A DNA stretch of 64,000 nt from a candidate division WOR-3 bacterium. Its GTDB lineage: Bacteria > Hydrothermota > UBA3073 > JACQXS01 > JAGMCI01. The DNA is taken from NCBI GenBank assembly GCA_023129325.1, contig JAGMCI010000021.1, positions 3,712 to 67,711 of the forward strand. The letters run 5' to 3'. The notes under the pieces were generated by a model. That model saw only the letters and a program-made list of their open reading frames with translations, was not told the DNA's origin and ran no database searches. The first letter of the stretch is position 1. Each line of letters opens with the position of its first letter. Below are positions 57,250-58,569 of this stretch, piece after piece. A program made the translations under genes and the position numbers.

Positions 57250-58569
57250 TTACAAATTAAGAGTTAAGTCCGTCAGCTGACGGATGGGGCAAGTGGAACA
57301 GCTTTTGGTTTGGCAATAATGTTTGAAGATGTGAATCATTCCCTGGTAATAGATTTCTTTCCGCCTCAGGCGGATTAATTTTTGCTTTATGAGTAATCTT
57401 TTAGTCATTAGTTTTGTGATGTTGTTTTCTGGTAATGGCTTGTAATTCATATAGATTTGGATGATTTTATTTGCAAGGCTAAAGCCTTGCCCTACATTAA
57501 GGGTTGATAATAGAGGTAATACTACATTTAGAATTATTATTTCAACAGTTGATTTACCCATTTTGGCTTGAGAAAACTTGGCTTTTATTTTTTCAATGTC
57601 GGGGAAAGTAGTTATTAGAAAATTACAAATTCCATCTTGTATTATATCAGCTAAAAAATAACTTATATCTCTTATTCTTTTTGTTGGAAATATAGAGGGT
57701 CTAACTTTAAAGAACTGCCATTCCTCTTTTTTCATAGTCTGTACATTGCGAGGCATAAAGCCCCGCGCTACATTGCTTTTTTCATAATCCTGCTTACGCA
57801 TAAGTGCGGGATTGGGAAGCAAACCACCTACTTCAAGTAAGGTAACTTGAATTAACTTAATTTTTTCGCTTCTTGATTTATTTGAGGTTAAGGATTTTAG
57901 ATAATCTATTGGGACGAGTTGAGCAAGCTTTATAAATGGTTTTTCATTTTTGACATATCCTAATGATTCCATAATTCCTATATAAGCAGATTGTTCTTGG
58001 CCATAATCTTTTATAAGTTTTTTAAATCTTATCTCCCTTTCTTTGAATCGGGCTTTCCCTTGTTCTTTAAGGATAGAGAGCAATACTTTGGAATTAGGCA
58101 CATAAGGGCAAGTGTATTTTTCCTGTGCTTTTTTTTCTTTAATATATTCTTTAATAAGTTTAGATAATGGCTTTTTAATCCTGCGAGAGAGATTAAAAGT
58201 TTCAATGAGATTTTTACTTTCAGTAATAGCGGGTTGATTACCGTATTGGGTTACTACATGAAGTATTACCTTATTGTATTTAGGGTCAATTTGATGCTGG
58301 TGCTCAAACCAGCTATTACTTGAAAGGTGAATTTCAATATCACCCTTTAAGAGAGTTTTATCAAGTTTAATAATTGAATTTTTAAAATCAGGTCCATCTT
58401 CTTGATTTGGGATTCCCGGTGAGATTATTTCAATTCTTTTTCCTGACTCAGTTTGCAGGGGCGTATTGCCACTCCGTGGTGAAGGTCGTGGTGAACCATA
58501 CGCCCCTACACCGCGTAGTTTCTGATATTCCCATATCCATCTTATAAATTTTTCATCAAATTTTGGCAT
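57250..58569 (-). CDS. DUF2851-family protein, heavily colonised by palindromic elements
   Basis: The N-terminus MPKFDEKFIRWIWEYQKL matches the DUF2851 start pattern (..E.F..YIW....). At least six repeat-derived segments are read in-frame. The ORF track start at 58599 reads through an upstream repeat. Confidence 0.55.
   Translation of the reverse strand: MPKFDEKFIRWIWEYQKLRGVGAYGSPRPSPRSGNTPLQTESGKRIEIISPGIPNQEDGPDFKNSIIKLDKTLLKGDIEIHLSSNSWFEHQHQIDPKYNKVILHVVTQYGNQPAITESKNLIETFNLSRRIKKPLSKLIKEYIKEKKAQEKYTCPYVPNSKVLLSILKEQGKARFKEREIRFKKLIKDYGQEQSAYIGIMESLGYVKNEKPFIKLAQLVPIDYLKSLTSNKSRSEKIKLIQVTLLEVGGLLPNPALMRKQDYEKSNVARGFMPRNVQTMKKEEWQFFKVRPSIFPTKRIRDISYFLADIIQDGICNFLITTFPDIEKIKAKFSQAKMGKSTVEIIILNVVLPLLSTLNVGQGFSLANKIIQIYMNYKPLPENNITKLMTKRLLIKQKLIRLRRKEIYYQGMIHIFKHYCQTKSCSTCPIRQLTDLTLNL
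57269..57284. repeat. TCCGTCAGCTGACGGA perfect palindrome forming the C-terminal codons of the DUF2851 gene
   Basis: Identical to the core at 22720-22735. Read as ...IRQLTD... Confidence 0.85.
57360..57374. repeat. TCCGCCTCAGGCGGA palindrome inside the DUF2851 gene
   Basis: Read as RLRR. Confidence 0.85.
57473..57490. repeat. GCAAGGC-TAAA-GCCTTGC hairpin inside the DUF2851 gene
   Basis: Same family as 16076 and 61154. Confidence 0.8.
57748..57768. repeat. GCGAGGC-ATAAA-GCCCCGC(GC) hairpin inside the DUF2851 gene
   Basis: Reverse complement of 4611-4635. Flanked by the direct 8-mers TACATTGC (57742-57749 and 57769-57776). Confidence 0.8.
57793..57810. repeat. Half copy of the CCCGCAC palindrome (CTTACGCATAAGTGCGGG) inside the DUF2851 gene
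   Basis: Matches the right half of 54760-54785. Confidence 0.6.
58458..58506. repeat. Nested element inside the DUF2851 gene: a GGGGCGTATTGC...CATACGCCCC hairpin interrupted by CACTCCGTGGTGAAGGTCGTGGTGAAC
   Basis: The outer hairpin occurs uninterrupted at 61232-61251. The inner 27-mer occurs alone at 6880-6906. Confidence 0.85.

What the first reader, a model, noticed from the sequence alone, without database searches (positions are those of the whole stretch)
58458..58506. Element-in-element nesting: a 27-nt element sits in the loop of a 20-nt hairpin that exists uninterrupted in another gene
In etfA the hairpin GGGCGTAT-TGCC-ATACGCCC (61232-61251) is intact and encodes AYGNTP. In the DUF2851 gene the same hairpin is split exactly in its loop by CACTCCGTGGTGAAGGTCGTGGTGAAC, giving AYG-SPRPSPRS-GNTP. 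That 27-mer also exists on its own, reverse-complemented, in an intergenic spacer (6880-6906, one mismatch). Having the interrupted copy, the uninterrupted copy and the solo insert together is the classic signature of a mobile sequence that targets hairpin loops.
Basis: seen in the sequence. Interest (0 to 1): 0.75.

Follow-up and report, generated by a model that had tools for sequence, protein, structure and literature searches.

The report
Tiny repeat nested inside hairpin repeat
Two families of very short repeated DNA sequences in uncultured WOR-3-group bacteria sit one inside the other within a protein-coding gene without breaking it. This looks like genuine miniature mobile DNA, but the inner piece does not specifically seek out hairpin loops.

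Summary
At 58457-58507 a 10-bp-stem hairpin (AGGGGCGTAT/ATACGCCCCT) encloses the 27-mer. The same hairpin is intact at 61232-61251, and the 27-mer recurs at 6880-6906 with one mismatch.

The nesting order is supported. A distant DUF2851 ortholog (L083) carries the uninterrupted hairpin at the same codon position, and a syntenic relative (L084) has neither element.

The 27-mer is a dispersed unit. I found 11 copies in WOR-3/Stahlbacteria-type contigs, all with unrelated flanks. The conserved unit is 30 nt and begins and ends with CCA, for a net gain of 27 nt. All four copies inside genes use the frame GSPRPSPRSG.

The claim that it targets hairpin loops is not supported. Only 1 of 11 copies lies in a loop. 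Three sit exactly at the AACCAC head of heptamer arrays, and most others abut other repeats. A CCA target plus survival at insertion-tolerant protein loops explains the nesting at least as well.

The hairpin is REP-like with a GTAG head. It is mostly intragenic, and no RAYT transposase was found.

The closest precedents are the cyanobacterial small dispersed repeats (21-27 nt, nested, in heptamer arrays) and intragenic or nested GTAG REPs. I class this as a new member of a known kind. The mechanism of spread is unknown.

The parts
58457..58466 (.). Left arm of the interrupted hairpin (AGGGGCGTAT). On the coding (-) strand it is the right arm, ATACGCCCCT.
58469..58498 (+). 30-nt conserved unit CCACTCCGTGGTGAAGGTCGTGGTGAACCA. 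It is read on the - strand as GSPRPSPRSG.
58498..58507 (.). Right arm of the interrupted hairpin (ATACGCCCCT). On the coding strand the hairpin starts GTAG-GGGCGTAT.
58508..58516 (-). Extra 9 nt (CTACGCGGT on the coding strand, encoding LRG) next to the hairpin foot. It is absent from the L083 ortholog and is part of the 16-codion excess over homologs... (16-codon excess).
61232..61251 (.). Uninterrupted hairpin GGGCGTAT-TGCC-ATACGCCC in the linker between the ferredoxin and ETF domains of EtfA (VRAYGNTPVQ). It causes no length change relative to homologs.
61860..61879 (.). Degenerate copy of the hairpin (3 mismatches) inside a 16-codon insertion in etfB. It is read in a different frame (GVSQYA).
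6878..6907 (-). Solo intergenic copy of the 30-nt unit (1 mismatch), placed exactly at the AACCAC head of a CACAGAG heptamer array.
6844..6879 (-). Heptamer array (CACAGAG units, read on the - strand) that the solo copy abuts. The window holds 14 such AACCAC-headed arrays.
23524..23535 (-). Half hairpin (GTAGGGGCGTAT) in ORF 22990-23961, read in the same VGAY frame. It is followed by a different hairpin (TCCCGCACATAAATTATGTGCGGGA) instead of its own right arm.

Best explanation
The 49-51 nt stretch is two unrelated miniature dispersed repeats of WOR-3-group bacteria, one inside the other.

(1) The host is a REP-like hairpin family, (GTAG)GGGCGTAT-NGCA-ATACGCCC(CTAC). It occurs in intergenic DNA and, in frame, in variable loops of proteins.

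(2) The guest is a non-palindromic 27-nt unit: two 12-nt half-units plus CCA. It was copied into the CCA of the hairpin loop after the hairpin was already in the DUF2851 gene.

Shown:
- both families are dispersed with unrelated flanks;
- the order of events;
- a net +27 nt with CCA on both sides;
- a single reading frame (GSPRPSPRSG) in all four genic copies.

Inferred:
- The unit spreads by a copy-in process that needs a CCA (often CCAC). This gives either a 3-bp target duplication or insertion next to a fixed CCA. The agent could be an unidentified trans-acting enzyme acting on single-stranded DNA, or CCA-microhomology template switching.
- Its usual home is the AACCAC head of heptamer arrays.
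- In genes, only copies survive that land in insertion-tolerant loops, in the benign Gly/Ser/Pro/Arg frame. That is why one ended up inside an earlier insert.
- The loop position reflects a CCA in an exposed, tolerated place, not a dedicated loop-targeting mechanism.
For: Sequence identity and chance.

Order of events:
- L083, a DUF2851 ortholog with the same prfB-DUF2851 synteny, has GTAGGGGCGAAT-TGCA-ATATGCCCCTAC at the same codon position with no 27-mer.
- L084, a syntenic relative, has neither element.
- Uninterrupted hairpins occur elsewhere in the same genome (61232; L081 9316) and in Stahlbacteria (L071 6752).

27-mer family:
- 11 copies, all with different flanks. CC before and CA after are conserved, although they were not part of the search pattern.
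- It is a clean +9 aa insertion against three gvpL/F paralogs or homologs.
- It is part of a 29-aa insertion in gcvT relative to 1WOO and to WOR-3 orthologs.
- Paralogous 'empty' sites keep one CCA: hairpin loops read TGCC-A, and array heads read AACCAC.
- Three of 11 copies are at array heads, P about 6e-5.
- Five of six frames are open, yet 4 of 4 genic copies use GSPRPSPRSG.

Tolerant-site accumulation:
- The same gcvT loop holds different insertions in six lineages.
- Window genes carry about 10 extra in-frame GC-rich segments relative to L084.
- The unit sits side by side with other modules in L075, and hairpins are triple-nested at 28116-28162.

Structure: the hairpins fold strongly (z -4 to -7) and the stem survives the insertion. 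The 30-mer has no structure of its own (z about 0).
Against: - No presence/absence polymorphism was seen. All seven gvpL/F cluster members (93-100% aa identity) keep the insert, so recent mobility is not shown.
- The collection scans required exact matches. Copy conservation is therefore ascertainment-biased, and diverged copies were missed.
- Only about 80 kb of the source genome could be read, so no genome-wide census was possible.
- The single loop insertion is still somewhat unlikely under random CCA choice (P about 0.02), so some preference for loops cannot be excluded.
- For the hairpin family, 'insertion' is not always what is seen. In EtfA and in the L071 gvpL/F gene it occupies existing codons with no length change.
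- The NJ tree places the two hairpin-bearing DUF2851 genes apart. This means either parallel gain at one site or several losses.
- No candidate enzyme was identified.
Confidence: 0.6

Rival explanations
1. The 27-mer is a mobile element whose integration machinery specifically recognises hairpin loops, that is, single-stranded or cruciform DNA.
For: - The composite itself, with the insertion exactly in the 4-nt loop and the stem preserved.
- A loop hit is unlikely by chance (P about 0.02).
- Another hairpin-in-hairpin arrangement exists at 28116-28162.
- Loop-specific insertion has precedents: IS elements in REP loops, and REPs inside small palindromes (PMC3733652; reference list of PMC3116915).
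Against: - Ten of 11 copies are not in a hairpin loop.
- Three sit at non-palindromic AACCAC array heads.
- The gvpL/F and pheT sites show no inverted repeat around the insert.
- In L075 the unit lies beside hairpin modules, not inside them.
Confidence: 0.12
2. There is no dedicated mobility. The 27-nt segment is copied between repeat-rich sites by replication template switching or gene conversion, using CCA/CCAC microhomology. Heptamer array heads act as donors, and hairpins act as stall sites.
For: - CCA or CCAC, and in three cases (G/T)AACCAC, occurs at both junctions.
- The unit starts with the same CCAC as every array unit.
- Copies cluster with other repeats.
- Hairpin copies can overwrite codons without changing length, as gene conversion would.
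- No transposase was found.
Against: - Microhomology events would be expected to give variable lengths and boundaries. Here the unit always has the same 30 nt, and no 1-unit or 3-unit variants exist.
- The same unit is found in different lineages (WOR-3 and Stahlbacteria) at non-orthologous sites.
Confidence: 0.2
3. The 49-nt composite is the ancestral unit. The 20-nt hairpin and the solo 27-mer arose from it by deletions, for example between the CCA repeats.
For: Direct CCA repeats flank the 27 nt and could mediate a precise deletion that would regenerate the TGCC-A loop.
Against: - None of the 10 solo copies keeps any part of the hairpin arms.
- Uninterrupted hairpins occur in four other contexts, including the orthologous DUF2851 site in L083.
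- The composite is unique among all copies found.
Confidence: 0.03
4. The repeats are functional motifs kept by selection rather than selfish or mobile DNA. For example, the two 9-nt direct repeats 12 nt apart could be a protein-binding site, or the peptide GSPRPSPRSG could be a useful linker.
For: - Two direct CGTGGTGAA repeats with a 12-nt period resemble a dimer-binding site.
- The insert is fixed across strains of 93-100% identity.
- A single reading frame is used in genes.
Against: - Copies occur in both orientations in intergenic DNA and inside four unrelated housekeeping genes, as extra residues absent from homologs.
- A peptide function cannot explain the intergenic copies.
- A binding-site function does not explain the clean in-frame insertions.
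Confidence: 0.05

Closest known systems
Small dispersed repeats (SDR1-8) of Nostoc punctiforme and relatives. Elhai et al. 2008, Genome Res 18:1484. The paper was not held in the library, so its content is from my own knowledge; the reference itself was seen.
   Same: - Size class of 21-27 nt.
- Dispersed copies with unrelated flanks.
- Presence or absence relative to orthologs.
- Often embedded in tandem heptamer repeats.
- Elements nested inside other short repeats.
- No known transposase, which implies an unknown mode of spread.
   Different: - Different phylum (WOR-3/Stahlbacteria, not cyanobacteria).
- No sequence relationship was tested.
- The host of the nesting is a REP-like GC hairpin rather than HIP1 or SDR5.
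- The 27-mer has no predicted structure of its own.
- Copies inside genes always use one frame.
GTAG-tagged REPs, including intragenic REPs and REPs inserted inside small palindromes (Di Nocera et al. 2013, PMC3733652)
   Same: The hairpin is a 20-28 nt GC-rich palindrome with a GTAG at its 5' foot in 5 of 6 full copies. REPs of this super-family are documented in frame inside genes and nested within other palindromes.
   Different: - Here the GTAG is base-paired with CTAC in the best copies rather than being an unpaired tag.
- Four of six copies are intragenic, whereas REPs are mostly extragenic.
- The copy number seen is low (4 in about 80 kb).
- No RAYT was found (a weak test).
- In this case the REP-like element is the host of the nesting, not the guest.
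Rickettsia palindromic elements (RPE)
   Same: Repeats inserted in frame into genes that still encode functional proteins (as summarised in PMC3733652).
   Different: RPE-1 is 100-150 nt and palindromic. The 27-mer is far smaller and not palindromic.
IS1397/ISKpn1-type insertion into the loops of REP palindromic units (cited in PMC3116915; details from my own knowledge)
   Same: A mobile sequence found in the loop of a REP hairpin.
   Different: Those guests are full insertion sequences that encode a transposase and show strict loop specificity. Here the guest is 27 nt, non-coding, and mostly found outside loops.
IS200/IS605-family single-strand transposition and its miniature derivatives (my own knowledge)
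   Same: Insertion next to a fixed short target without need of inverted terminal repeats. This would fit a constant CCA on the left and an element ending in CCA. Hairpin loops and lagging-strand DNA are natural substrates.
   Different: Those elements need stable sub-terminal hairpins and are longer than 100 nt. The 27-mer has only 4-bp mini-palindromes at its ends. No TnpA was found.
GC clusters of yeast mitochondrial DNA (my own knowledge)
   Same: Short GC-rich palindromic modules that spread in an AT-rich genome, sometimes in frame inside a gene.
   Different: An organellar system, with no sequence or host relationship.

Membership tests
Small dispersed repeats (SDR, Elhai 2008) | Unit of 21-27 nt repeated at dispersed sites with unrelated flanks | tested here: met
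   11 copies of a 27/30-nt unit, all with different flanks
Small dispersed repeats (SDR, Elhai 2008) | Present in one gene or site but absent from orthologs or paralogs (evidence of mobility) | tested here: met
   +9 aa against gvpL/F paralogs. Absent from the L083 and L084 DUF2851 orthologs. Absent from gcvT orthologs.
Small dispersed repeats (SDR, Elhai 2008) | Embedded in tandem heptamer repeats and/or nested in other short repeats | tested here: met
   By eye, 8 of 11 copies abut heptamer-like arrays, 3 of them exactly at AACCAC heads. One is nested in a hairpin and one lies beside hairpin modules.
Small dispersed repeats (SDR, Elhai 2008) | Sequence or structural relationship to SDR1-8 of cyanobacteria | not testable with these tools
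   The paper and its sequences were not held. The host phylum differs.
GTAG-tagged REP (hairpin part) | 20-40 nt imperfect palindrome with a GC-rich stem of 5-13 bp and a loop of 2-20 nt | tested here: met
   8-12 bp stems and 4-nt loops, with folding z-scores of -4 to -7
GTAG-tagged REP (hairpin part) | Unpaired GTAG motif at one end | tested here: inconclusive
   GTAG is present in 5 of 6 full copies (GTAA in etfA). However, it pairs with CTAC in L071 and L083, and with 3 of its 4 positions in the window DUF2851 copy.
GTAG-tagged REP (hairpin part) | Many copies per genome, predominantly extragenic | tested here: not met
   4 copies in about 80 kb of this genome, 3 of them inside genes. Overall about 21 of 32 GC hairpin modules in the window are genic.
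GTAG-tagged REP (hairpin part) | Associated RAYT (Y1 transposase) gene | tested here: inconclusive
   No hit in about 110 kb by tblastn, using an E. coli RAYT sequence recalled from memory. The rest of the genome was not available.
MITE | Terminal inverted repeats, 70-300 nt, target-site duplication | tested here: not met
   The 27-mer has direct (CCA...CCA) ends, not inverted ones, and is 27-30 nt long.
Loop-specific insertion elements (IS1397-like) | Consistent insertion in hairpin loops; the element encodes a transposase | tested here: not met
   1 of 11 copies is in a loop. The unit has no coding capacity.
Rfam RNA families | Match to a curated RNA model | tested here: not met
   Only tmRNA and one tRNA were found in the window, and nothing at the three sites.

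The most novel reading that the evidence does not exclude
The 27-nt unit is an actively mobile element, among the smallest known. It integrates at CCA with a 3-bp duplication by a mechanism unlike known transposition. Together with the GC hairpin modules it forms a self-nesting repertoire that continually adds short peptide segments to housekeeping proteins of WOR-3-group bacteria.
Probability: 0.25. Interest if true: 0.75.

Novelty: new member of a known kind. Interest (0 to 1): 0.45.

Why it matters
How repeats of 20-30 nt spread without terminal repeats or their own enzyme has been an open question since the cyanobacterial SDRs were described. This locus gives an independent system in an uncultured phylum, with unusually clean evidence:
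- an interrupted host and an orthologous uninterrupted host;
- solo copies;
- a fixed 27-nt gain bounded by CCA;
- a defined preferred site, the AACCAC array heads.

It also shows that these bacteria tolerate many in-frame repeat insertions in core genes (etfA/B, apgM, gcvT, pheT). That affects gene annotation, protein length comparisons and alignment-based phylogeny of such genomes. With many MAGs available, gene-repeat co-occurrence could point to the enzyme responsible.

Tried and rejected
- Genome-collection scan with the 21-nt core. Of 70 loci, 69 were actinobacterial rplE genes or RGEG-type repeats. Only L045 was a true copy, and the source genome itself was not hit.
- Viral contigs: no copy.
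- Peptide-level census of GSPRPSPRSG. A doubled composite peptide gave 7 candidates and no score. A local test showed that composition bias removes the score of the 10-mer. No conclusion can be drawn from this.
- Search for an empty site among close strains. All gvpL/F cluster members keep the insert.
- Taxonomic naming of L072-L078 through cluster members: no names were returned.
- RAYT search by tblastn with a remembered E. coli sequence: nothing, but this is a weak test.
- Rfam: nothing at the sites.
- Elhai 2008 could not be read.
- Variants of the unit with one or three 12-nt half-units: none.
- I considered and rejected CRISPR-like spacer integration, because the flanks are inverted rather than direct repeats.
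- I considered and rejected a tRNA-derived origin, because there is no T-arm or acceptor similarity by eye.
- I considered and rejected translational bypass or RNA excision of the insert. Genic copies are always multiples of 3 nt, free of stop codons and in one frame, which indicates translation.
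Full report
**1. The observation**

- At 58457-58507 a perfect 10-bp stem (AGGGGCGTAT / ATACGCCCCT) encloses a 31-nt loop that contains CACTCCGTGGTGAAGGTCGTGGTGAAC.
- The same hairpin with a 4-nt loop (GGGCGTAT-TGCC-ATACGCCC) is at 61232-61251.
- The 27-mer recurs reverse-complemented with one mismatch at 6880-6906.
- Neither pattern is expected even once in shuffles of the window.

The host ORFs are a DUF2851 gene (PF11013) and an EtfA with an N-terminal ferredoxin domain. The peptides are as stated. 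The 6880 copy is intergenic, downstream of argS. The source is a candidate division WOR-3 MAG at 36.5% GC.

**2. The boundaries**

CCA lies on both sides of the insert, so its position in the loop is ambiguous by 3 nt. The unit conserved in all copies is 30 nt: CCACTCCGTGGTGAAGGTCGTGGTGAACCA. Its core is two 12-nt half-units.

**3. The 27-mer is a dispersed family**

One scan of species-representative genomes and one of JGI metagenomes gave nine further true copies: L045 and L071-L078. All are on low-GC contigs (36-42%) and all have different flanks.
- L045 is a WOR-3 MAG. L071 is Candidatus Stahlbacteria. L075's GcvT is closest to WOR-3 proteins.
- The dinucleotides CC before and CA after the searched pattern were not part of the query, yet they are conserved in 10/11 and 11/11 copies. 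This is unbiased evidence for a 30-nt unit.

Four copies are inside long genes:
- DUF2851 (window);
- pheT (L045);
- gvpL/F (L071);
- gcvT (L075).

Five of the six frames of the unit are open, but all four genic copies are read as GSPRPSPRS(G/W).
- In gvpL/F it is a clean 9-residue insertion against three paralogs or homologs.
- In gcvT it is part of a 29-residue insertion relative to the solved T. maritima enzyme and to WOR-3 orthologs.
- No variants with one or three half-units exist in the DNA held.
- The unit has no significant fold of its own, and no Rfam family matches.

**4. The hairpin is a second family**

Full copies, written with GTAG at the 5' end:

| Location | Sequence / context |
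|---|---|
| Window, DUF2851 | Interrupted copy |
| Window, etfA | GTAA-GGGCGTAT-GGCA-ATACGCCC |
| L081 9316-9345 | Same genome, about 350 nt past the window end, intergenic: GTAG...AGCA...GTAC |
| L071 6752-6779 | In another gvpL/F gene, with a 12-bp stem |
| L083 | Described in section 5 |
| Window, etfB 61860-61879 | Degenerate copy |

- A half copy at 23524-35 is fused to a different hairpin.
- The hairpins fold strongly, with z from -4 to -7, and the stem survives the 27-nt insertion.
- The GTAG foot recalls the GTAG-tagged REP super-family. Intragenic copies, and copies nested in small palindromes, are documented for that family (PMC3733652).
- Differences from that family: the GTAG here is paired, most copies are genic, and no RAYT-like gene was found in about 110 kb (a weak test).
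- In etfB and DUF2851 the hairpin is part of extra codons. In EtfA and in the L071 gvpL/F gene it occupies existing codons with no change of length. Simple insertion is therefore not the whole story for this family.

**5. Order of events**

L083 is a DUF2851 ortholog with the same prfB-DUF2851 synteny and 47% amino-acid identity. At the same codon position it carries GTAGGGGCGAAT-TGCA-ATATGCCCCTAC (VGANCNMPLQ), with no 27-mer.

The syntenic relative L084 has neither element there (AAAGTGGGCTCAAAAC). Together with the uninterrupted copies in the same genome, this shows that the hairpin came first and the 27-mer second.

The alternative, an ancestral 49-mer with later deletions, is contradicted. 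None of the ten solo copies keeps any arm sequence.

An NJ tree puts the two hairpin-bearing genes in different clades, each with hairpin-free sisters. That means either parallel gain at one site or several losses. The tree is only indicative.

**6. Is the loop the target?**

Only 1 of 11 copies is in a hairpin loop. The constant feature is CCA.
- Three intergenic copies (window 6878, L073, L074) sit exactly at the (G/T)AACCAC head of heptamer arrays (CACAGAG, CACAAAG, CACGAAT). The window holds 14 such heads without the insert, and these serve as paralogous empty sites that keep one CCA.
- Taking window frequencies and random choice among CCA sites, three or more of 11 at array heads has P about 6e-5. 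One or more of 11 in a GC hairpin loop has P about 0.02.
- By eye, 8 of 11 copies abut heptamer-like arrays. In L075 the unit lies beside three hairpin modules.

The unit therefore associates with other repeats in general and with array heads in particular. A modest preference for loops cannot be excluded.

**7. Why nesting can arise without targeting**

The window genome is full of in-frame GC-rich modules.
- There are 40 GC-rich perfect hairpins, against about 15 in shuffles.
- About two thirds of the recognisable modules are inside genes.
- Gene by gene against L084, the window genes have about ten extra segments: apgM +8, +18, +10; etfB +16; etfA +12, +8; DUF2851 +16, +9, +4.
- In GcvT the same surface loop holds different insertions in six lineages.

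New insertions in genes evidently survive only at tolerant positions, and an existing insert is such a position.

Triple-nested hairpins at 28116-28162 (z -4.4) show that nesting recurs.

**8. Mechanism**

Shown:
- a fixed unit;
- a net gain of 27 nt;
- CCA at both junctions;
- one CCA at inferred empty sites;
- a single frame in genes, which implies the inserts are translated and filtered by selection.

Inferred:
- Spread is by copy-in at CCA(C).
- One route is a trans-acting enzyme working on single-stranded DNA. This would give either an IS200/IS605-like insertion next to a fixed short target or a 3-bp duplication.
- The other route is microhomology-mediated template switching from array heads.
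- The constant boundaries, and the presence of the unit in different lineages at non-orthologous sites, favour a dedicated process.
- The lack of any enzyme, and the codon-overwriting behaviour of the hairpins, keep the recombinational alternative alive.

No strain-level presence/absence polymorphism was found, so current activity is unproven.

**9. Comparison and verdict**

The closest precedent is the small dispersed repeats of Nostoc: 21-27 nt, nested in other short repeats, embedded in heptamer arrays, with no known transposase. This is from my own knowledge; the reference was seen.

The hairpin part resembles intragenic GTAG REPs (PMC3733652) but fails or leaves open several membership features.

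The finding is real, and the nesting interpretation is right. The loop-targeting generalisation is not supported. I class it as a new member of a known kind, of moderate interest. Its main value is as a clean case for the unsolved question of how such tiny repeats spread.

Noticed in passing
window 57250-63725, compared with L084 5373-11212: Six syntenic genes (apgM, etfB, etfA, mazG, prfB, DUF2851) are each 8-40 residues longer than in the relative GCA_030018315.1. In four of them (apgM, etfB, etfA, DUF2851) the excess comes from discrete in-frame GC-rich segments, for example CAGGTSLPDGQQAGAFGR, KEKEDRQGSQPC and SALSASGG. In mazG and prfB it is only at the N-terminus (probably start-codon calls). 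L084 has almost none of these hairpin families.
   Followed up: partly
window, 14 sites, e.g. 34995, 44493, 48585, 54918, 33470(-), 38767(-), 59836(-): Most intergenic regions carry arrays of heptamer-like units (CACAGAG, CACAGAT, CACGAAT, ACAGAAA) that begin with a conserved AACCAC head. Their function is unknown.
   Followed up: partly
window 28116-28162: Triple-nested GC hairpin: outer CCCGCCT/AGGCGGG, middle TCCGT/ACGGA, inner TCCGCC-TGA-GGCGGA. It lies in frame inside a family 4 glycosyltransferase (SWRQPARLRYPPQAETDLTGG), with folding z of -4.4.
   Followed up: partly
window 4609-4640 and 57744-57772: A second GTAG-headed hairpin family, GTAGCGCGGGGC-TTTAT-GCCYCGC. One copy is intergenic and one is in frame in the DUF2851 gene (ARGFMPR).
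   Followed up: no
window 23622, 24210, 52814, 28135, 60614, 38700, 48652; L075 270-290: The most abundant hairpin family is (A)TCCGCC-N3-GGCGGA(T), with about 8 copies in the window. It is shared with L075, where GGCAC-ATCCGCC-TTT-GGCGGA repeats the module order seen at window 23610-23650.
   Followed up: no
window 23495-23535 (- strand): The left arm GTAGGGGCGTAT (read VGAY) is followed by the hairpin TCCCGCACATAAATTATGTGCGGGA instead of its own right arm. CGTATA lies on both sides of the inner hairpin. This may be another nesting or replacement event.
   Followed up: no
window 47929-48040: A perfect tandem duplication of 56 nt at the 3' end of ORF 45651-47987. It could be real or an assembly artefact.
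   Followed up: no
window 50643-50758: A 16-copy heptamer array (AGAAGTC / GAAGTGG) lies inside the long ORF 49554-51173.
   Followed up: no
window 58569-58605 and 59661-59697: A 37-nt repeat (95% identical; CGCAGAT-type units) lies just upstream of the likely true starts of both the DUF2851 gene and prfB.
   Followed up: no
L071 6288-7316 and A6: The Stahlbacteria gvpL/F paralog carries a further in-frame insertion (SPANPSRDGTGREGG, 11 extra residues) that its paralogs lack.
   Followed up: no
A7 (GcvT orthologs P0296, P0298, P0300, P0306, P0308 and L075): One GcvT surface loop, between YKI and IGEVTSG, holds different insertions in six WOR-3-group lineages. Other sites in P0301 and P0306 also carry long lineage-specific insertions.
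   Followed up: partly
L045 1915-1960: In pheT the 27-mer is followed by an in-frame heptamer array (TTCTGTC units, read as QKTEDRKQETG). The arrays too can therefore be translated.
   Followed up: no
window 33521-33897; 63859-63931; 56201-57127: A tmRNA gene, one tRNA gene, and an N6/N4 DNA methyltransferase gene next to the DUF2851 gene.
   Followed up: no
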